DNA from: a virus
Length of the DNA: 64,000 bases
IMG/VR virus record: IMGVR_UViG_3300034980_000132
Location: 2,977-66,976 of that record
Reading direction: 5' to 3' (one strand)
Shown here in pieces: positions 8,540 to 24,746 of this stretch (the stretch's first letter is position 1; each line of letters starts with the position of its first letter). A program made the position numbers and the translations under genes. The notes beneath the pieces are model-generated. The model saw nothing but the letters and a program-made list of their open reading frames with translations. It searched no databases and was not told where the DNA came from.

Positions 8540-8578
8540 AGCCCCAGGGACGGTCATGCAACCACCCTGGGGCTTTTT
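8540..8578 (+). terminator. Intrinsic terminator
   Basis: AGCCCCAGGG/CCCTGGGGCT stem followed by a T-run. Confidence 0.75.
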
Positions 8579-8654
8579 CTATTTTTACCCTAGTAGTATT
8601 TCCAGAAATTGGTATACTAAAGGTATGAGTCAAACGAACCGCCTGGAGAAACCC

Positions 8655-9413
8655 ATGGCCAAAGTACTATTCTATGACATCGAGACCGCCCCCAACCTCG
8701 GATACGTCTGGGGCCAGTGGGAGCAGAATGTCCTGAGCCACGTCCGAGAGTGGTACGTTCTGTGCTTCAGCTACCGGTGGGAGGGTGACAAGAAGACCAC
8801 GTCGGTGGCGCTCCCCGACTTCCCGGCTGCCTACAAGAAAGATCCGGAGAACGACAAGCTAGTGGTACAGAAACTGTGGGACCTGTTCGAGGAGGCCGAC
8901 GTGATCGTCGCACACAACGGCGACCACTTCGACTACCGCAAGGCGAGCGCCCGGTTCATCTACCACGGCATGGGCCCACCGGCCAAGCCGCAGAGCGTGG
9001 ACACGCTGAAGTGGGCTCGCAAGCACTTCATGTTTAACAGCAACAAACTCGGGGACCTGGGTCAGCGCCTGGGGCTCGGGAACAAGGAGGCCACCGGAGG
9101 CTTCAAGCTGTGGCAGGGGTGCATGCGGGGAGACCCCAAGGCCTGGAAGACCATGATCCGCTACGCCAAGCAGGACGTTACCCTACTACAGAAGGTGTAC
9201 TACAAGCTGCGACCGTGGTCCACCAACCACCCGAACCTCAACACCGTGGACGGCACGAAGGACAGCTGCCCGACGTGCGGTTCCAACCAGCTGATTTCCC
9301 GTGGGTCATACCGCACAAAGGTCAGCACGTTCAAGAGGCTCAGCTGCAAGTCATGTGGTGCTTTTTGCCGGAGCCGCAAGTCCGTTTCATCCACCACCAA
9401 CCTTACAACGTAG
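8655..9413 (+). CDS. DnaQ/RNase H-fold 3'-5' exonuclease with C-terminal Zn ribbon
   Basis: ExoI YDIET, ExoII AHNGDHFD, ExoIII YAKQD, CPTC..CKSC; start set at the ATG after GGAG. Confidence 0.88.
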   Translation: MAKVLFYDIETAPNLGYVWGQWEQNVLSHVREWYVLCFSYRWEGDKKTTSVALPDFPAAYKKDPENDKLVVQKLWDLFEEADVIVAHNGDHFDYRKASARFIYHGMGPPAKPQSVDTLKWARKHFMFNSNKLGDLGQRLGLGNKEATGGFKLWQGCMRGDPKAWKTMIRYAKQDVTLLQKVYYKLRPWSTNHPNLNTVDGTKDSCPTCGSNQLISRGSYRTKVSTFKRLSCKSCGAFCRSRKSVSSTTNLTT

Positions 9414-9463
9414 GAATGAAACTCGGACGGACCCTGGTACACTACTCTAATTATGAGGCGACC

Positions 9464-10024
9464 ATGGACATACAGACAGACTCCACCCAGATTGAAATGT
9501 TTGACGGTAACCGATGGCCGGGAGAGATGCCGAGCATCGAAGCAGTGGCACACAGCCTAGCCATGACATGCAGGTTCGGAGGACACACCAGAGGGTTCTA
9601 CAGCGTGGCGGAGCACAGCGTTCTAGTAAGTGAGGCTATTGAGCGAGACTTCGATGACCCAGGGTTGATATTTTCGGGCCTGATGCACGATGCCGTGGAG
9701 GCGGTACTGTGCGACATGCCTAGACCCCTTAAGCCAATGTTTGCGTCGTTCGTGGCCATGGAGGCAGAGGTCGAGACCCAGATCATGAACCACTTCGGAG
9801 CCAACTGGGATGAAGACACACAAAAAATCGTTAAGCTGTATGACAGGTCCGCCTGTATGGCAGAAGCCCGCGAGCTTATGCCCTCAGGTGGAGCGGACTA
9901 TGACATCGCGTCGAACCCGAGCGCGGTTCGGATCGCCGAAGGAATCACGGTGGGCTGTTTGGAGCCAGGGCGGGCGAAGGAACTATTCCTTAACCGGTAC
10001 AAGGAGACCAGAGCGAAACTTTGA
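9464..10024 (+). CDS. HD-domain phosphohydrolase (YfbR/YfdR-like 5'-deoxynucleotidase)
   Basis: AHSLA..CRFGGH..YSVAEHS, LMHDAVEA..D.PRPLK; start 9464 or 9416. Confidence 0.85.
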   Translation: MDIQTDSTQIEMFDGNRWPGEMPSIEAVAHSLAMTCRFGGHTRGFYSVAEHSVLVSEAIERDFDDPGLIFSGLMHDAVEAVLCDMPRPLKPMFASFVAMEAEVETQIMNHFGANWDEDTQKIVKLYDRSACMAEARELMPSGGADYDIASNPSAVRIAEGITVGCLEPGRAKELFLNRYKETRAKL

Positions 10025-10058
10025 CCCGAATCAATGAACTCTAAAGAAAGGTAAGACT

Positions 10059-10289
10059 GTGAGAAACATTATCGACTTGGTTGCTGGATTGCTGCTGGCT
10101 ATTATCCCCGAGGGATACGCCACCAACTTGGTGTCGCTAGCGTCAATCGGCTTTGGTGTCAGCGGGCTGGTCCTGCACTACCTTGGCCAAGGGGGGCTCG
10201 ACCCCGCCGCGGCTACCGCCCTCATCCTGGCTGGACTCGGTGGTCTTGGCCTGCGTAGGGCAGTTGAGAGCAATGGACGAAGACGTTGA
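10059..10289 (+). CDS. Small membrane protein, holin-like
   Basis: 76 aa with 2-3 hydrophobic helices and a basic C-terminus (GLGLRRAV). Confidence 0.5.
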   Translation: MRNIIDLVAGLLLAIIPEGYATNLVSLASIGFGVSGLVLHYLGQGGLDPAAATALILAGLGGLGLRRAVESNGRRR

Positions 10290-10306
10290 CCACTGGAGTA
10301 CACACC

Positions 10307-12571
10307 ATGCAGTTTCCCCCGATAAGCCTCAAGGGTAAGGAATACACGTTCACTCTGTGGAACGGTGAGGTACTTCCGGACAAGGTTCTGGCGTTGGATA
10401 CCGAGACCGAGCTGATCCAAGAGGGGGTTACACCTCGGTTGGCTTTAGCGGCAGTGCATGGAAGCGCGGGGAGCTGCGTGGTTATTCATCCAGGTGACGT
10501 GTTTGACTTCGTGACCGAGCACCAAGACAGCACGTTTGTGTGCCACAACGCGGTGTTCGACTTCCACGTTATAGCACAGCACCTGGGTCACGGGGACGTA
10601 GTTCAATCGGATAGAGCATCGGCCTGTCGAGCCGAAAGTTGCGGGTTCGAGTCCCGTCGTCCTCGCTCTGTGTGGTGGGACAGGGCCAAGGAGGGCAGAA
10701 TCCACTGCACCATGCTGTTCAACTCACTCATCGGGTTAGCCCGCAACGACGAGGACCCTATCAACAAGGGTCTCGGCATGCTGTCATCCAGGTGGTGCGG
10801 CGTGGACCTCAATAAGGACGACCCCTGGAGGCTGCGGTACGGGGAGCTGCTTGGATTAACCGTGGAGGAGTGGGAGGACGTGGACCCGGCAGCCTGGAGG
10901 TACGCACTGGCTGACCCCATAGCCACGCTTATGCTGTACCAAGAGCAGGTCAAGGCAGCCAGCCGGATGGGACGCCGAGGGTTCGATGGATACCAGTTAC
11001 CCAAGGCCGTAGAGCGGTTCGGGCTGCTGACGGTGGGCTTGCAAACGCAGGGTGCCATAGCCCTTGATGCGGTTAGCCGTAGGGGCGTGAGCATTGACTC
11101 TGAGTACGCCGAGCAGGTAAAGGAGGACATAGCTTCATTGGTGGCTGGCGAGGCGAGGTCCATGGAGGAGATGCTGGGCACCGAGGCCTTCCACCGAAAC
11201 GCGGCTGGAGCCCTGAGCCTCACACCCGCTGGTGCCCCACGCCGCAACGCCAAGCTGATCAAGGGCAGGCTGGCACACATAGCCGAGCACACTAGCCCAC
11301 CCATCATACCGCCGATCAACAAGGACGGGCTGGTCACCGATTCAGTGAAGTACTGGCAGGAGTACACCGACGCTGACCCGTTCGTGGAGACGTACGTCAA
11401 CTTCATGTCGCAGACTAAACTGCTGCAATTCTTTAAGGCACTCAAGACCGACAGGATCTACCCGAGGTACCGACCGATGGTACGAACGGGACGCACCAGT
11501 TGCAGCAAGCCCAACCTACAGCAGCTGCCGCGGGACAGCAGGTTCCGAGAGATGATACTGCCGTCACCTGGGTGCTTGCTGTTGCAGGTGGACTACAGTG
11601 TGCTTGAGCTTCGGACGCTGGCACAGGTGTGCATATCCAGGTTCGGGGAGAGTCGCATGGCTGAGCTGTTCAGAGAGGGCAAGGACCTTCACAGGTACAC
11701 CGCAGCCACCATGTTAGGACTGACCATGGGGGACTTCGGTCTGTTGGACAAGGGCGTGCAGAAAGAGCACAGGCAGCGGGCCAAGGCCCTGAACTTCGGC
11801 GTACCGGGTGGCCTGGGTGCCAAGAGCCTGTCGGAGTACGCCAAGACAGCGTTCGGGGTGACCATCGACCAGGACGACGCCAAGAAGCTACGCAACCAGC
11901 TGATCTACGGCACCTACCCTGAGCTTGGTCGGTACCTCAAGGGTGACAGCTGGGACAACCTAGCCGACAACCTGCACTGTTCGGTCGAAGAGGTGAACGA
12001 GAACCTGAGGGACTGGGACGCATGGATGGACGCTAACCGGATCGTGGCTGGCCAACCTGCCAACCGCAAGGACAAGCCGTACCACCCAGCCGAGAGGGAT
12101 CGTCTGTGGAAGGCGCTGTCCAAGATGAACGACAACCCACAGCTGATCGACATACTGTCGCAGCGGCAGACCGGCATGCACGCCCTGCGTAAGATATTCT
12201 TCGGTCACACCCGCACGTTGACGGGTCGAATACGTGGGCACGTCAGCTACACCCGCCAGAAGAACAGCCCGTTCCAGGGGCTGGCAGCCGACGGCAACAA
12301 GCTGGCTCTGTTCAACCTAGTGCATGCAGGGTACGACGTTTGCGGGTTCGTGCATGACGAGGCCCTCATCAACATCCCCGAGGACTGCGACCTGACCGCA
12401 GCGGTAGAGGATGTCCAGCGGATCATGCGAGAGTCCATGGAGGTGTTCACACCAGACGTCCCCATCGAGACATCCGGCCTGCTGGCTGACCGCTGGTACA
12501 AAGACGTAGACGCTAACGAGTACGACGACCAAGGCAACATAATTCCATTCTCCAAGGGAGTGCTGACATGA
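10307..12571 (+). CDS. polA: Family A DNA polymerase with 3'-5' exonuclease domain, carrying an in-frame tRNA
   Basis: ExoI ALDTET, ExoII HNAVFD, ExoIII YALAD; TGRTSC.KPNLQQLPR, motif A VDYSVLELR, motif B RQRAKALNFG, motif C FVHDE; ATG 10307 after GGAG. Confidence 0.95.
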   Translation: MQFPPISLKGKEYTFTLWNGEVLPDKVLALDTETELIQEGVTPRLALAAVHGSAGSCVVIHPGDVFDFVTEHQDSTFVCHNAVFDFHVIAQHLGHGDVVQSDRASACRAESCGFESRRPRSVWWDRAKEGRIHCTMLFNSLIGLARNDEDPINKGLGMLSSRWCGVDLNKDDPWRLRYGELLGLTVEEWEDVDPAAWRYALADPIATLMLYQEQVKAASRMGRRGFDGYQLPKAVERFGLLTVGLQTQGAIALDAVSRRGVSIDSEYAEQVKEDIASLVAGEARSMEEMLGTEAFHRNAAGALSLTPAGAPRRNAKLIKGRLAHIAEHTSPPIIPPINKDGLVTDSVKYWQEYTDADPFVETYVNFMSQTKLLQFFKALKTDRIYPRYRPMVRTGRTSCSKPNLQQLPRDSRFREMILPSPGCLLLQVDYSVLELRTLAQVCISRFGESRMAELFREGKDLHRYTAATMLGLTMGDFGLLDKGVQKEHRQRAKALNFGVPGGLGAKSLSEYAKTAFGVTIDQDDAKKLRNQLIYGTYPELGRYLKGDSWDNLADNLHCSVEEVNENLRDWDAWMDANRIVAGQPANRKDKPYHPAERDRLWKALSKMNDNPQLIDILSQRQTGMHALRKIFFGHTRTLTGRIRGHVSYTRQKNSPFQGLAADGNKLALFNLVHAGYDVCGFVHDEALINIPEDCDLTAAVEDVQRIMRESMEVFTPDVPIETSGLLADRWYKDVDANEYDDQGNIIPFSKGVLT
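10592..10665 (+). tRNA. tRNA-Asp (anticodon GTC), embedded in frame within polA; no encoded CCA
   Basis: Acceptor GGGGACG/CGTCCTC, U8A9, D stem GTTC/GAGC with GG in the loop, anticodon stem TCGGC/GCCGA with loop CT-GTC-GA, 5-nt variable loop, T arm GCGGG-TTCGAGT-CCCGT, discriminator G73. Confidence 0.9.
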
Positions 12572-18258: not shown

Positions 18259-18529
18259 TTTGTTCCTCCTTAGTAGTTACGGACCTCATGATTAGTTCGA
18301 TAGGTGTGTGGTCTCTCAGCCAGTGGACGGGTACTTCGCTACCGTTTAGGGGTCCGTTCCCGGAGTCCACCCCCGTGCCCACACCGGTAGATCCGATGTA
18401 GCTGTACCCGCACAGATTGCACGCTAGGCTGTGTATCTCGTACAACAGGGGTTCCTCCATCAGACCCAGGTCATACGCCATCTGGGCGTGCTCCAGTGCT
18501 CGGTCTACCGTGGACTTGGTTATCGTCAT
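18251..18529 (-). CDS. Hypothetical protein
   Basis: ORF coupled to both neighbours; CNLC motif. Confidence 0.55.
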   Translation of the reverse strand: MTITKSTVDRALEHAQMAYDLGLMEEPLLYEIHSLACNLCGYSYIGSTGVGTGVDSGNGPLNGSEVPVHWLRDHTPIELIMRSVTTKEEQNE

Positions 18530-19209
18530 ACCTTGTCGGCCTCCCTTTGCAATACCCTGTCGATGGTTCGCTTTCGCCACAGTCTCCCTCGGCACAGGGT
18601 CCCCTGTTCGTTGAGGAACGTGCGTATGCCCCCCGCTGTGAGCCTGCGGGACAGCCGCACGATGTCCTGCACGATCACCTGCTCTTCCTTGCGTGGCACC
18701 AGCTGACCCTCCACGTTGGCGTAACCGTACGGCGGTTTCTTGCTCACCGCCTGCCCGTTCGACTGTCGGTACCGCAGGCTCTTGCGGGTACGGTCGGCGG
18801 TTTGTGCTGCCTCGAATTCGTCGATTGACAACAGCACACTGAGCACCAGCCTGCCGGTCGGGCTGCTGCTGTCCAGGCCCACGCCGTCGTTGTCCACGAT
18901 GTGTACGGCTGTCCCCTCGGCGTTCCAGGCACTGAACCAGTGCAACCCGTCCGCCGCGTTTCGGAACAGCCTAGACAGAGACAGGCACACCAGCCCGCCG
19001 TTGTCTCGGGCCAGCCCGATCAGCTTGCTACCCTCGGGCCTTGCGGACAGCGGTGTCTTTCGGGCCGACGTATGCGGTTCCTCTAGCACCACCCCCGGCT
19101 TCAGACCCTTGGCCTCACAGTACGCCTCGCACCTCTTGCGTTGCAGCTCCAGTGTTAGCCCGTCGCTTTGGGTTGGTGAGTATCGAAGATAGATTGGTAC
19201 GCCTGTCAT
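18526..19209 (-). CDS. Serine recombinase (resolvase/invertase catalytic domain plus short recombinase domain)
   Basis: IYLRYS..Q..LELQR, SLSRLFRN, SPTGRLV..VL..EFE, PPYGY, RGRLW..TI.RVL. Confidence 0.88.
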   Translation of the reverse strand: MTGVPIYLRYSPTQSDGLTLELQRKRCEAYCEAKGLKPGVVLEEPHTSARKTPLSARPEGSKLIGLARDNGGLVCLSLSRLFRNAADGLHWFSAWNAEGTAVHIVDNDGVGLDSSSPTGRLVLSVLLSIDEFEAAQTADRTRKSLRYRQSNGQAVSKKPPYGYANVEGQLVPRKEEQVIVQDIVRLSRRLTAGGIRTFLNEQGTLCRGRLWRKRTIDRVLQREADKV

Positions 19210-19431: not shown

Positions 19432-19781
19432 GATACTTTCCTCGCTATCAGGTCAAGGTTATGGTGGTCAGTTAGCCAATGGTCGGCAGCCTGCTGGTGC
19501 AGGCCGAACATCCTGCCGCACAGGGTACACATCACCCGCATGCGTGAGTCGCACAGTAGTGTGTACCAGGGGTTCCTGGTGTGCTGGCACAGGCCCAGCT
19601 CTTTGGCTTCCTCGAAACGGTCGAGTGCGGCCATCCAACGAGCCCTCGGTCCCATGACAGGAGAGTAGGAAATGGCCTCGTCCCAGTCTGAACGCTCCAG
19701 GGCGTCCAGCACACCGTCCTTCCGATCCTTCGGATGCGGCCACTTTCCCTTGCGACGGGGGTAGTCACCTAGTTTTTTCAT
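19428..19781 (-). CDS. Hypothetical protein with C2H2-like zinc finger
   Basis: CTLCGRMF......HW..HH; ATGA overlaps at both ends. Confidence 0.6.
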   Translation of the reverse strand: MKKLGDYPRRKGKWPHPKDRKDGVLDALERSDWDEAISYSPVMGPRARWMAALDRFEEAKELGLCQHTRNPWYTLLCDSRMRVMCTLCGRMFGLHQQAADHWLTDHHNLDLIARKVS

Positions 19782-21001
19782 GTGTTTTCCCTCATGTCTA
19801 TCACCCTCCCGAACGGTGCGTTGGTGCTCCCGTCCGACAACCACAGCACGGGGTACGTCGGTTTCTTGGTGGGGAACTCAGTGTACAGGTCGGTGAAGCA
19901 CACCAGGAACTCCAGCCCGCCCGGCATGTGCTTGTCCAGCCAACCGAAAACGCACTGGTGCGACGTCCCGCCACCACCGTGCGGCTCCATCTTCAGCGGC
20001 CCGTCCATGGGGGACCAGTGCTGCACCCTGGTCACCCTGGTGTCGTGGTACAGGATGGTCACCTGTGCGTTTGGCCATGCCTCCATGATCGACTGCACCT
20101 GCCCGCAGAACTTCTTGAGCAGGTCCCTGTTGATGGAGCCAGAGCAGTCCACCGCGATCACGCAATCCTTAATCTCTTCGCTGTACAGCCCAGGCAGGTA
20201 CGTCCCGCTCCATGCGTGCCGCCGGTCGAACCGCTGCCAGCTGTACTCACCGCTGCCCACCGCTGCCACCGTGAAGTCCGCCAGCTCTTCCTGCCAGCTT
20301 ACGTCGTTGCGTGGTAGGATGTCCTCTAGCAGCAGGTCCAGGTCCCCACCAGCGGCACCACGACCGACCGCGTGAGCTGCCATGGCTGCCTCTGTGGACC
20401 AGTCCACCGGGTCGGCACTAGCACCTACCACCTCGGCCTCGCCGTCCTCGCCACCTGCTCCAGCACCAGCACCACCAGACTGCGGGTCACCGTCCTGAGG
20501 CTCGGCCTCGAAGGTCCCCCACATCATCTCGTCGGGCTCGGGTATGGGGCAGTCGTCCACCAGCATGTTGTAGTACTCGTATGTGGTGAGACCTACCGGG
20601 AACTTCTCGAAGGGCTCCACGCCCGGCATCAATAGCCCGCTGGGAAACTCGAACCCCAGCTTCGACAGCTCGTAGTTAATGTGCAGGTCCCCCGCCACGT
20701 TCCACAGGAACGGCCTGCGGTTACCGATGTGCTTTACATGCCCCCGCACGCAGTGCCAGACCTCGTGAGCCAGCACACCACGCAGCTGTGCGTCTGTGAG
20801 CGTAGCCATGAAGTCTGGGTCGAACCGTATCCACCGCCCGTTGGTACAGGCCGTACCGCACGGCGTGATCTGAATGCCGAGCTTCATCACCAGAGCCCCA
20901 AAGAAACGGGTGTTGATGTCGTCAATCACCAGGAACTGGGTGCGGGCTCGGGTAATGCGGTCCATCGGCGTGATGGTCATGCGTTCGGTCGCCGTCTTCA
21001 T
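19778..21001 (-). CDS. Metallopeptidase-vWA protein (DUF2201-like)
   Basis: TACTNG, VLAHEVWH zincin motif, WNVAGD..IN, MIDAS AVDCSGS, GGGGT, FTDLY. Confidence 0.9.
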   Translation of the reverse strand: MKTATERMTITPMDRITRARTQFLVIDDINTRFFGALVMKLGIQITPCGTACTNGRWIRFDPDFMATLTDAQLRGVLAHEVWHCVRGHVKHIGNRRPFLWNVAGDLHINYELSKLGFEFPSGLLMPGVEPFEKFPVGLTTYEYYNMLVDDCPIPEPDEMMWGTFEAEPQDGDPQSGGAGAGAGGEDGEAEVVGASADPVDWSTEAAMAAHAVGRGAAGGDLDLLLEDILPRNDVSWQEELADFTVAAVGSGEYSWQRFDRRHAWSGTYLPGLYSEEIKDCVIAVDCSGSINRDLLKKFCGQVQSIMEAWPNAQVTILYHDTRVTRVQHWSPMDGPLKMEPHGGGGTSHQCVFGWLDKHMPGGLEFLVCFTDLYTEFPTKKPTYPVLWLSDGSTNAPFGRVIDMRENT

Positions 21002-24442: not shown

Positions 24443-24490
24443 AGGGCTGGCAGGGAGTCGAACCCTGCACGCTGCCGCCGGGACAGCCCT
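24443..24490 (-). ncRNA. tRNA-like minihelix (acceptor stem plus T arm, no D or anticodon arm)
   Basis: AGGGCTG/CAGCCCT stem stacked on GCAGGG-TTCGACT-CCCTGC; intergenic. Confidence 0.55.
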
Positions 24491-24494
24491 AGCA

Positions 24495-24746
24495 TCACCC
24501 GTCAAACGCTGCATAACGCTCCAGGACGTGCTCCAGGTCGGCGTGTACCGCACGGTACTGTTCCACCCCTCTGAACCACTTGCGTGGCGTCTTACGGCCG
24601 TCTGGGTGCATCCCTGCCAAGTACCCAGAGAACCGCACCTGACCGGCCACCGGCGGTACGATGGTCATCTCGATGATCCACGGAAAGTGGTCCCCTCGGC
24701 TGTGATCCTGCACGTTCGAGCTGGCTTCGGCTTGCATACTCATCAT
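24495..24746 (-). CDS. Hypothetical early protein
   Basis: Start at the ATG after AGGAG. Confidence 0.55.
   Translation of the reverse strand: MMSMQAEASSNVQDHSRGDHFPWIIEMTIVPPVAGQVRFSGYLAGMHPDGRKTPRKWFRGVEQYRAVHADLEHVLERYAAFDG

What the first reader, a model, noticed from the sequence alone, without database searches (positions are those of the whole stretch)
10592..10666. A complete tRNA-Asp(GUC) embedded in frame inside the phage DNA polymerase gene
Seen: 10592-10665 folds into a full cloverleaf with a 7-bp acceptor (one G-U), U8/A9, 4-bp D stem with GG in the loop, 5-bp anticodon stem, U33-GUC, 5-nt variable loop, TTCGA T loop and G73. It is on the polA sense strand, starts exactly on a codon boundary (codon 96 from ATG 10307), and with one further base spans exactly 25 codons (GDVVQSDRASACRAESCGFESRRPR). 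Both other frames carry a TAG inside the tRNA (10599, 10612), so it occupies the only open frame. It lies just after ExoII (HNAVFD) and before the HCTML segment; all Exo and Pol motifs are intact. Its codons (CAA, GAT, AGA, TGT, CGA, AGT) differ from the gene's C/G-ending bias, consistent with RNA-level constraint. Established: GUC plus G73 are the AspRS identity elements; RNase P and RNase Z/3' exonucleases process tRNA folds from longer transcripts; CCA can be added post-transcriptionally. Inference, three testable models: (a) dual-use gene in which tRNA maturation destroys the polA mRNA, an either/or switch coupling replication to host tRNA processing or anticodon-nuclease defence; (b) an attP inside polA, so integration into a host tRNA-Asp splits and silences the polymerase and excision restores it; (c) a tolerated recent insertion. 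I know of no described case of a full tRNA read as part of a phage polymerase.
Basis: partly seen in the sequence, partly recalled or inferred. Interest (0 to 1): 0.95.

Follow-up and report, generated by a model that had tools for sequence, protein, structure and literature searches.

The report
tRNA gene inside phage polymerase gene
A complete aspartate tRNA gene sits in frame inside the DNA polymerase gene of an uncultured marine phage and has kept its RNA fold across diverged strains, so one stretch of DNA appears to serve as both a tRNA and a floppy protein loop.

Summary
Confirmed. Window 10592-10665 (+) is a high-scoring tRNA-Asp(GUC) (Rfam 66 bits against a cut-off of 29; ARAGORN). It is read in frame as residues 96-120 of an otherwise intact family A DNA polymerase. 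It is not an assembly artefact: contigs from four further studies span both junctions, and two other assemblies encode the same insert.

None of 35 aligned homologues, 31 genome or viral loci, or 80 IMG/VR loci has a tRNA in polA. An 88%-identical relative (L054) has 26 unrelated bases exactly where the 74-base tRNA lies.

A more diverged strain (P0269, 85% aa identity) keeps the tRNA. The four listed base changes all lie in stems and break no pair; one is a compensatory U-A to C-G swap, and three change the peptide. AlphaFold puts the insert in the model's only low-confidence stretch, between two exonuclease-domain helices.

Best reading (0.6): a selected tRNA gene nested in polA, released from polA transcripts by host tRNA processing. 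Processing and charging are inferred. attP-in-polA has no support (no adjacent integrase, no split forms) but is not excluded.

I found no published description. Earlier notes of this scan, which I did not check, report similar in-frame tRNAs in other phage replication genes.

The parts
10592..10665 (+). tRNA-Asp(GUC), 74 nt from position 1 to discriminator G73; no encoded CCA (the next bases are CTC)
   Evidence: Rfam RF00005 at 66 bits, E = 4e-12. ARAGORN 10592-10666. All 21 pairs are standard. 83-89% identical to Planctomycetota tRNA-Asp genes.
10592..10666 (+). The same bases read as codons 96-120 of the polymerase (GDVVQSDRASACRAESCGFESRRPR), a predicted low-confidence loop
   Evidence: Translation. 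Absent from 35 of 35 aligned homologues. AlphaFold2 gives pLDDT below 50 only for residues 96-116, between helices 82-94 and 119-128.
10307..12571 (+). Family A DNA polymerase gene with an N-terminal 3'-5' exonuclease domain (754 aa; an upstream TTG at 10286 is an alternative start)
   Evidence: ORF list. Pfam PF00476 and PF01612. phrog_17. Residues that I read from recall as the exonuclease and polymerase motifs are invariant in 36 of 36 sequences (D31, E33, D85, Y199, D203, D429, K493, H683-D684-E685).
8556..9413 (+). Separate 'DNA polymerase exonuclease subunit' gene two genes upstream; context, as a possible back-up proofreader
   Evidence: phrog_403, E = 1.1e-86.
18526..19209 (-). Small (227 aa) resolvase-type serine recombinase, the only recombinase found in the record; context for the attP rival
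   Evidence: PF00239, 90 bits. No PF00589 in the record.

Best explanation
This is a real tRNA-Asp(GUC) gene, kept by selection, nested in frame and on the sense strand inside the phage's family A DNA polymerase gene.

Shown: the 74 bases form a full, host-like cloverleaf. They replace a short variable loop of the exonuclease domain. They are translated as a 25-residue loop predicted at low confidence in an otherwise confidently folded enzyme. The arrangement persists in diverged strains with changes that keep the RNA pairs.

Inferred: the tRNA has no transcription unit of its own and is made from polA transcripts. RNase P cuts at 10591/10592. A 3' nuclease trims after G73. The host CCA-adding enzyme adds CCA, and host AspRS charges the tRNA (GUC and G73 are present). 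Each transcript that is cut yields a tRNA and loses its polymerase message. Transcripts that ribosomes cover first yield polymerase. The phage therefore gets both products from one early or middle gene.

The likely benefit is extra tRNA-Asp for an Asp-rich, GAC-biased proteome, or replacement of host tRNA-Asp lost during infection. This is the weakest step.
For: 1. A genuine tRNA. Rfam 66 bits against a cut-off of 29. ARAGORN agrees. The acceptor stem, anticodon loop and T arm match Planctomycetota tRNA-Asp genes.

2. Not an artefact. Run X2 has an identical 2014-nt contig covering 9932-11800. Variant contigs in X4 (10451-10774), X15 (10530-10680) and X16 (10432-10680) span the whole tRNA and both junctions. 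These are four studies, with no joints or indels listed. Proteins P0002 (an ENA assembly, 2 aa differences) and P0269 (ENA) carry the insert.

3. RNA-level conservation. Four changes are listed for X4, X15 and X16: 10597 C>T, 10602 T>C, 10619 T>C and 10635 A>G. They turn C-G into U-G, U-G into C-G, and U-A into C-G (a compensatory pair). All four lie in stems and none breaks a pair. The chance of that is 0.013 for four random transitions and 0.0004 for four random substitutions. Three of the four change the peptide (V>A, S>P, E>G). P0269 shows exactly these three residue changes and no others in the 25 codons.

4. Age. Over 255 shared columns, window and P0269 (both with the tRNA) are identical at 217, while window and L054 (no tRNA) are identical at 225. 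By parsimony the tRNA predates the split of the two tRNA-bearing lineages.

5. Tolerance. Model pLDDT is 91.1 overall, and the only stretch below 50 is residues 96-116. The loop length varies among homologues. A separate exonuclease subunit is encoded nearby.

6. Exact boundaries. Against L054, the window-specific segment is the 74-nt tRNA and nothing else, and it replaces 26 nt. The difference of 48 bases keeps the frame.

7. Demand. Asp makes up 7.0% of 17,630 codons in 40 long ORFs, with 973 GAC and 264 GAT.
Against: No RNA data exist. No listed run is on record as RNA, so processing, CCA addition and charging are all inferred.

CCA is not encoded, while 12 of 15 sampled host tRNA-Asp genes encode it. 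The record has no CCA-adding enzyme.

L054 shows that the phage lineage can do without the tRNA.

The peptide's divergence (3 of 25 residues) is about the same as the flanks' (15%). The protein data alone therefore do not show relaxed peptide constraint.

The read-laying table hid 82 further differences. Silent changes inside the tRNA cannot be excluded, and the stem-only statistic rests on the four listed ones.

The compensatory pair gives the state seen in most sampled host tRNAs (C-G). It could have been imported by recombination with a host tRNA gene and not selected in place.

The Asp-demand argument has no host codon-usage comparison.
Confidence: 0.6

Rival explanations
1. Tolerated passenger. 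A tRNA sequence once landed in a dispensable loop of polA and is carried along without being used as a tRNA. Its conservation reflects short evolutionary time, or occasional gene conversion by host tRNA-Asp genes.
For: The loop is low-confidence and variable in length. L054 does well without the tRNA. Host tRNA-Asp is naturally open in this frame and is 75 nt with one extra base, so an in-frame, stop-free insertion has a chance of about 1 in 9 (my estimate from reading). No CCA is encoded. The variant allele's changes move towards the common host states C11 and C27-G43.
Against: The tRNA persists in lineages with about 15% protein divergence with no broken pair and a compensatory change. In X16 record 10, 4 listed differences fall in the 74 nt of the tRNA, against 23 in about 175 flanking nt. 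The 66-bit score is typical of working tRNAs and not of decaying copies (the comparison is from my own knowledge).
Confidence: 0.2
2. attP inside polA. The tRNA is the phage attachment site. Integration into a host tRNA-Asp gene would split polA between the two prophage ends, and excision would rebuild it.
For: More distant relatives are prophages in tRNA genes. In L012 and L005 a 464/473-aa tyrosine integrase, one gene downstream of polA, ends inside a tRNA-Val, and a host gene follows. The last 28-30 nt of the tRNA are identical to 7 of 15 sampled host tRNA-Asp genes. attP inside a coding gene has precedent: the mycobacteriophage repressor (PMC9934374 passage; PMC9753646 passage) and SSV-family integrases (PMC7253208 abstract). 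The record is only about 70% complete.
Against: The record has no tyrosine integrase. The only recombinase is a small resolvase type about 8 kb away, while att sites normally adjoin int. A whole tRNA with exact 5' and 3' limits is more than an att core needs. No joints or phage-host hybrid contigs appeared in the four runs. The nearest genome-borne relative is 50% identical. The best full-length host match is 89% in 401 Planctomycetota genomes. L054 lacks the site altogether.
Confidence: 0.1
3. A cis-acting processing signal. The tRNA shape is kept as an RNase P target that limits or times polymerase mRNA, like tRNA-like processing signals in organelle mRNAs. The released RNA itself is not used in translation.
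For: The same structural conservation as above. The position inside an essential replication gene means that any cleavage lowers polA expression (inference).
Against: A processing signal would not need the full AspRS identity set, an intact anticodon loop, and close likeness to host tRNA-Asp throughout. There are no data on transcripts.
Confidence: 0.08
4. Assembly chimera joining a host tRNA to phage DNA.
For: Short, high-depth host tRNA contigs share up to about 30-nt words with the site (records 11, 19-21, 26).
Against: Contigs from four further studies bridge both junctions. Three separate assemblies encode the insert. The frame stays open and the flanks align base for base with L054.
Confidence: 0.01

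Closest known systems
Phage-encoded tRNA genes (T4, T5 and many large phages); roles proposed are codon compensation and escape from tRNA-cleaving defences (PMC10264068 and PMC11555353; abstracts seen in the listing)
   Same: A phage carries a host-like, apparently functional tRNA gene of one specificity.
   Different: Known phage tRNA genes are intergenic, often clustered. This one lies inside an essential protein-coding gene, on the sense strand and in frame, and is also translated. Its anticodon loop matches 10 of 15 sampled host tRNA-Asp genes, so it shows no loop change of the kind proposed for nuclease evasion.
attP cores inside phage or virus coding genes: integration-dependent immunity of mycobacteriophages (PMC9934374, PMC9753646; passages read) and SSV-family integrases that carry the att site in their own ORF (PMC7253208; abstract only)
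   Same: tRNA-derived sequence is read as part of a viral ORF.
   Different: Those cores are partial tRNA 3' ends, lie in or next to the integrase-repressor module, and serve recombination. Here the tRNA is complete, sits in polA, and no integrase is nearby or anywhere in the record.
Rickettsia palindromic elements and similar structured repeats inserted in frame in genes
   Same: A folded nucleic-acid element is read through as an extra surface loop of a functional protein.
   Different: Those are multi-copy selfish repeats. This is a single-copy canonical tRNA with amino-acid identity elements, and its variation preserves the fold.
tRNAs co-transcribed with mRNAs, and tRNA-like processing signals in mRNAs (for example the E. 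coli tRNA-tufB operon and plant mitochondrial t-elements; recalled, not checked here)
   Same: RNase P and 3' nucleases release a tRNA-shaped unit from a longer messenger transcript.
   Different: Those units lie outside coding sequences. Here the unit is itself 25 sense codons.
Earlier notes of this scan: tRNA(CAU) in frame inside a phage primase-helicase ORF (e1-3294340) and a Gly-tRNA look-alike in a polymerase-acyltransferase gene (e1-6135345) (AI notes, not checked by me)
   Same: A tRNA in frame in a flexible linker of a phage replication protein.
   Different: Different phages, genes and tRNA identities. The first carries CCA and occurs in about fifty relatives. Here the arrangement is confined to one small lineage and is polymorphic.

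Membership tests
tRNA (Rfam RF00005), bacterial tRNA-Asp | Covariance-model score above the family's gathering score | tested here: met
   66 bits against 29, E = 4e-12, model positions 1-71 of 71.
tRNA (Rfam RF00005), bacterial tRNA-Asp | Cloverleaf with all four stems paired, U33, and anticodon GUC | tested here: met
   ARAGORN anticodon gtc. 21 of 21 pairs are standard in the window allele and in the variant allele.
tRNA (Rfam RF00005), bacterial tRNA-Asp | AspRS identity elements (GUC anticodon and G73; the list of elements is recalled) and likeness to host tRNA-Asp | tested here: met
   G73 and GUC are present. 83-89% identity to Planctomycetota tRNA-Asp. The acceptor stem is identical to 7 of 15 sampled genes.
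tRNA (Rfam RF00005), bacterial tRNA-Asp | Encoded 3' CCA (present in 12 of 15 sampled Planctomycetota tRNA-Asp genes; not required of tRNA genes in general) | tested here: not met
   G73 is followed by CTC. 3 of 15 host genes also lack CCA.
tRNA (Rfam RF00005), bacterial tRNA-Asp | A mature, aminoacylated RNA is produced | not testable with these tools
   No RNA run is listed.
Family A DNA polymerase with 3'-5' exonuclease | Pfam domains above their cut-offs, and catalytic motif residues | tested here: met
   PF00476 at 117.7 bits against 34.3. PF01612 at 23.7 bits against 23.6. The motif residues (named from recall) are invariant in 36 of 36 sequences. Model pLDDT is 91.1.
attP within a coding gene (integration-dependent immunity / SSV type) | Integrase gene adjacent to the att-bearing gene | tested here: not met
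   No PF00589 match in the 66,976-bp record. The only recombinase is a 227-aa resolvase type about 8 kb away. Caveat: the record is about 70% complete.
attP within a coding gene (integration-dependent immunity / SSV type) | Core identical to the 3' part of a host tRNA gene | tested here: inconclusive
   28-30 nt at the 3' end are identical in 7 of 15 sampled host genes. The best full-length identity is 89% in 401 genomes. The true host is unknown.
attP within a coding gene (integration-dependent immunity / SSV type) | An integrated form exists with the gene split at the tRNA | tested here: inconclusive
   None was seen. The best genome-borne relative is 50% identical. No joints appeared in four runs. 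The short-protein search gave no N- or C-terminal halves ending at the tRNA other than JGI's own gene call P0122. Sampling is thin.
In-frame selfish repeats (RPE-like) | Many copies in the genome | tested here: not met
   One match in the record. Exact and degenerate patterns of the tRNA found no other contig in viral or metagenome collections.

The most novel reading that the evidence does not exclude
Nesting a tRNA in frame inside a replication gene is a recurrent phage strategy and not a one-off. The tRNA's release by host RNase P and RNase Z competes with translation of the same transcript. Host tRNA-processing capacity would then set the ratio of polymerase message to tRNA, a built-in coupling or timer between replication and translation supply. 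The earlier unverified notes of this scan on other phages (primase-helicase, polymerase-acyltransferase) would be further examples of the same class.
Probability: 0.2. Interest if true: 0.88.

Novelty: new variant of a known kind. Interest (0 to 1): 0.75.

Why it matters
If the tRNA is made and used, this is a stretch of DNA under two simultaneous constraints on the same strand: as a canonical structured RNA, and as sense codons of an essential enzyme. Bacteria and phages are not known to have such a case outside small dual-function RNAs.

It would show that tRNA genes can live inside ORFs. Annotation pipelines break such genes: JGI called this polymerase as a 633-aa fragment starting after the tRNA. 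Counts of phage tRNAs and of 'truncated' replication genes may therefore both be biased.

It also gives a clean natural experiment. Close relatives with the tRNA (window, P0269) and without it (L054) can be used to measure what a single phage tRNA is worth. They can also show how RNase P cleavage competes with translation.

Tried and rejected
Assembly chimera: rejected.

Two separate genes (exonuclease N-fragment, tRNA, polymerase), as in JGI's gene call P0122: rejected as the primary reading. The frame is open across the tRNA, there is no stop for the upstream part, and the model folds both parts into one exonuclease domain.

tRNA as a spliced-out 'intron': considered and rejected. Removing the 74-nt tRNA would shift the frame, going by my reading. 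No RNA ligase was searched for.

Retro-copy origin: no reverse transcriptase in the record. The origin remains open. Short words shared between L054's 26-nt segment and the tRNA (two 6-mers by eye) are about what chance gives, and I draw nothing from them.

Near-identical host tRNA: not found. The best is 89% in 401 Planctomycetota genomes, of which 249 gave a match at E <= 1e-10. Five MAGs carrying polA relatives gave 83-87%.

Exact or degenerate tRNA patterns found nothing in viral contigs or metagenome contigs. These tools may leave out records very near the window.

P0001 in viral contigs gave only one distant locus, L002.

RNA evidence: no RNA holder is listed.

The PDB sequence search aligned only the polymerase domain, so it says nothing about the insert site.

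The minihelix at 24443-24490 was compared with relatives' tRNAs as a possible true attP. Only its acceptor stem resembles a tRNA-Met of L008, so the result is inconclusive.

PHROGs on 10 neighbouring ORFs gave no lysogeny function.

Alignment A1 used 35 of the 120 listed homologues. I left out the identical P0002, the long fusions, and the partial-coverage hits.

Supplementary files of papers were not consulted.
Full report

ARAGORN finds a tRNA-Asp (anticodon gtc) at 10592-10666 on the + strand. Rfam's tRNA model matches 10592-10665 at 66 bits (cut-off 29, E = 4e-12, full model). It is the only Rfam match at gathering level in the 64 kb.

The ORF 10286/10307..12571 runs straight through the tRNA. 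The tRNA begins at codon 96, and with one more base it makes 25 codons. The TAGs at 10599 and 10612 close the other two frames.

Folded alone, the 75-mer does not give the cloverleaf as its minimum-energy structure, and its energy is unremarkable. I weigh that little against the covariance score.

**The host gene**

The host gene is an intact family A DNA polymerase with an N-terminal 3'-5' exonuclease domain (Pfam; phrog_17).

The window is bases 2977-66976 of a 66,976-bp IMG/VR virus record, estimated about 70% complete.

A search of 5.8 billion proteins gave 237 relatives, and the best 120 were listed. I aligned 35 of these with the query. I left out an identical one, the long methylase fusions and the partial hits.

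The residues I read as catalytic (motif names are recalled) are invariant in 36 of 36 sequences. None of the 35 homologues has the 25-residue segment. Where the query has 26-27 residues between HLGH and WWD, they have 5-10.

AlphaFold2 on this alignment gives mean pLDDT 91.1. The only stretch below 50 is residues 96-116, between helices 82-94 and 119-128. The tRNA is therefore translated as a low-confidence loop in a part of the exonuclease domain whose length varies.

A separate 'DNA polymerase exonuclease subunit' gene lies two genes upstream (phrog_403, E = 1e-86). It may add tolerance.

**It is not an assembly artefact**

The 90%-identity protein cluster holds the same 754-aa protein from a Logan/ENA contig of 30,758 bp. 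It also holds a two-residue variant (P0002) from an ENA contig of 8,377 bp, with the same insert.

Twenty marine metagenome runs from seven named studies hold part of window 9800-11800. I laid four runs from four studies other than the possible source:
- X2 has an identical 2014-nt contig over 9932-11800.
- X4 record 23 covers 10451-10774 with 22 differences.
- X15 record 3 covers 10530-10680 with 12 differences.
- X16 record 10 covers 10432-10680 with 27 differences.

All of these bridge the tRNA and both junctions. No joints, indels or phage-host hybrids were listed. The loose ends at the tRNA borders belong to short, high-depth contigs of other organisms' tRNA-Asp genes.

JGI's own annotation cut the gene. 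Its product P0122 starts at VWWD, just after the tRNA.

**A close relative lacks the tRNA**

The metagenome scan with the protein returned one locus, L054, with 88% identity over residues 1-487. L054 has no tRNA. Its polymerase reads HLGH-VLRRTWPGT-SVWWD.

At the DNA level the flanks align base for base up to ...GGTCAC on the left and from CTCTGTG... on the right. Between them the window has exactly the 74-nt tRNA (position 1 to the discriminator) and L054 has 26 unrelated bases. The difference of 48 bases keeps the frame. The unit that differs is the tRNA and nothing else.

**The tRNA varies in a way that protects the RNA**

The variant contigs in X4, X15 and X16 share four differences inside the tRNA:

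| Window position | tRNA index | Base change | Effect on the pair |
|---|---|---|---|
| 10597 | 6 | C>T | C-G becomes U-G |
| 10602 | 11 | T>C | U-G becomes C-G |
| 10619 | 28 | T>C | with 10635, U-A becomes C-G |
| 10635 | 44 | A>G | compensatory partner of 10619 |

All four lie in stems and none breaks a pair. The chance of that is 0.013 for four random transitions and 0.0004 for four random substitutions.

Three of the four change the peptide (V>A, S>P, E>G). An independent ENA protein, P0269 (271 aa, 85% identical), carries exactly those three changes and no other in the 25 codons.

In X16 record 10, 4 listed differences fall in the 74 nt of the tRNA, against 23 in about 175 flanking bases.

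There are caveats. The tool hid 82 further differences, so silent changes in the tRNA cannot be excluded. The peptide's divergence (3 of 25) is no higher than the flanks'. The new states (C11, C27-G43) are the common host states, so import from a host tRNA gene is possible.

**Age**

Over 255 shared columns the identities are:
- window and P0269: 217
- window and L054: 225
- P0269 and L054: 211

The two tRNA-bearing lineages are thus the more distant pair. By parsimony the tRNA was present before they split and was lost or replaced in L054. Recombination between co-infecting relatives could give the same pattern.

The outgroup P0003 (61% identical) has no insert.

**Origin**

The tRNA is 83-89% identical to tRNA-Asp genes of Planctomycetota:
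- 5 of 5 MAGs that carry polA relatives gave 83-87%.
- The best of 401 sampled genomes is 89%, and 249 of them matched at E <= 1e-10.

Its acceptor stem and its last 28-30 bases are identical to 7 of 15 aligned host genes. Twelve of those 15 encode CCA. The phage copy does not (CTC follows G73).

The record encodes no CCA-adding enzyme and no reverse transcriptase. How the exact-boundary replacement arose is unknown.

**The attP idea**

Distant relatives of this polymerase (about 40% identity) sit in prophages of Planctomycetota MAGs. Eight of 31 loci have a tRNA (Val, Met or Gln) 1.45-2.43 kb downstream of polA on the other strand, and none has one inside polA. None of those tRNAs lies in a long sense ORF.

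In the two loci I examined, L012 and L005, a 464/473-aa tyrosine integrase ends inside that tRNA. In L012 a host ketoacyl-synthase gene follows. The wider family is therefore temperate and targets tRNA genes.

In the window, however, the record has no tyrosine integrase. The only recombinase is a 227-aa resolvase type about 8 kb away. Subtilase and other genes follow polA. No split form was seen.

attP cores inside coding genes are known. Examples are the mycobacteriophage repressors (passages in PMC9934374 and PMC9753646) and the SSV-family integrases (abstract of PMC7253208). The idea is therefore legitimate, but here it explains neither the complete 5' half nor the missing integrase. I keep it at 0.1.

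**Rarity**

No tRNA at all was found in 80 of 80 IMG/VR loci with polA relatives of 24-43% identity, each with 1.5-kb flanks. These 80 were the best of 541 confirmed relatives. Together with the 31 loci and with L054, 0 of 112 related loci have a tRNA in polA.

**Mechanism**

Shown: a canonical, host-like tRNA-Asp is embedded in sense codons. The polymerase tolerates it as a low-confidence loop. The fold is preserved across diverged strains.

Inferred from general knowledge of tRNA maturation: RNase P makes the 5' cut, a nuclease trims the 3' end, CCA is added, and AspRS charges the tRNA through GUC and G73. The tRNA would thus be released from polA transcripts at the cost of those messages.

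Why Asp? Asp is 7.0% of 17,630 codons in 40 long ORFs, and 79% of Asp codons are GAC. This is weak support for supply, since there is no host comparison. Replacement of host tRNA-Asp lost to a defence nuclease is possible (abstracts of PMC10264068 and PMC11555353). But the anticodon loop is the one seen in 10 of 15 sampled host genes, which gives no sign of evasion.

**Comparison and novelty**

Five full-text searches found no description of a complete tRNA read in frame inside a phage or bacterial gene. Supplements were not available.

This scan's earlier notes report a tRNA(CAU) in frame in a primase-helicase ORF in about fifty phages, and a Gly-tRNA look-alike in a polymerase-acyltransferase gene. 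I did not check either. They suggest a wider class.

I file this as a new variant of known kinds (phage tRNA genes; dual-use sequence). It is not a member of the attP-in-gene systems or of the in-frame selfish repeats, because defining features of each were tested and not met.

**Limits**

There are no RNA data, no complete genome and no known host.

Noticed in passing
window 24443-24490 (-), ARAGORN call 24443-24539: An intergenic tRNA-like minihelix: a 7-bp acceptor stem plus a T arm, with no D or anticodon arms. ARAGORN forces it into a 97-nt 'tRNA-Val(gac)'. Rfam does not list it at gathering level. Its acceptor stem resembles that of the tRNA-Met next to the prophage in L008. It may be a truncated tRNA or an old att remnant.
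   Followed up: partly
L012:6202-7602 and L005:5529-6983: Distant polA relatives are prophages in Planctomycetota MAGs. A 464/473-aa tyrosine integrase one gene downstream of polA ends inside a tRNA-Val on the opposite strand. In L012 a host ketoacyl-synthase gene follows. Eight of 31 loci show a tRNA (Val, Met or Gln) in this position.
   Followed up: partly
window 10670-12571 (+): JGI's annotation of this very record calls the polymerase as a 633-aa protein (P0122) starting at GTG 10670, right after the tRNA. This is an annotation split caused by the embedded tRNA.
   Followed up: yes
window 8556-9413 (+): A stand-alone 'DNA polymerase exonuclease subunit' (phrog_403, E = 1e-86) is encoded two genes upstream of a polymerase that has its own exonuclease domain. 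A deoxyribonucleoside 5'-monophosphate phosphatase-like gene lies between them at 9422-10024.
   Followed up: no
proteins P0029, P0042, P0046, P0047, P0057, P0060, P0063, P0065, P0095: Many relatives of this polymerase are fused to DNA methyltransferase domains (PF02086 or PF01555), giving proteins of 1000-1235 aa.
   Followed up: no
P0002 residue 84: The ENA variant of the same polymerase has Cys in place of the conserved Phe of the NAVFDF (ExoII) motif. It could be a sequencing error or a real variant.
   Followed up: no
window 19778-21001 (-) and 18526-19209 (-): A 407-aa HNH endonuclease (phrog_1314, E = 2.5e-74) and a small resolvase-type serine recombinase lie in the minus-strand block downstream. 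No lysogeny function was recognised among the 10 ORFs scanned.
   Followed up: partly
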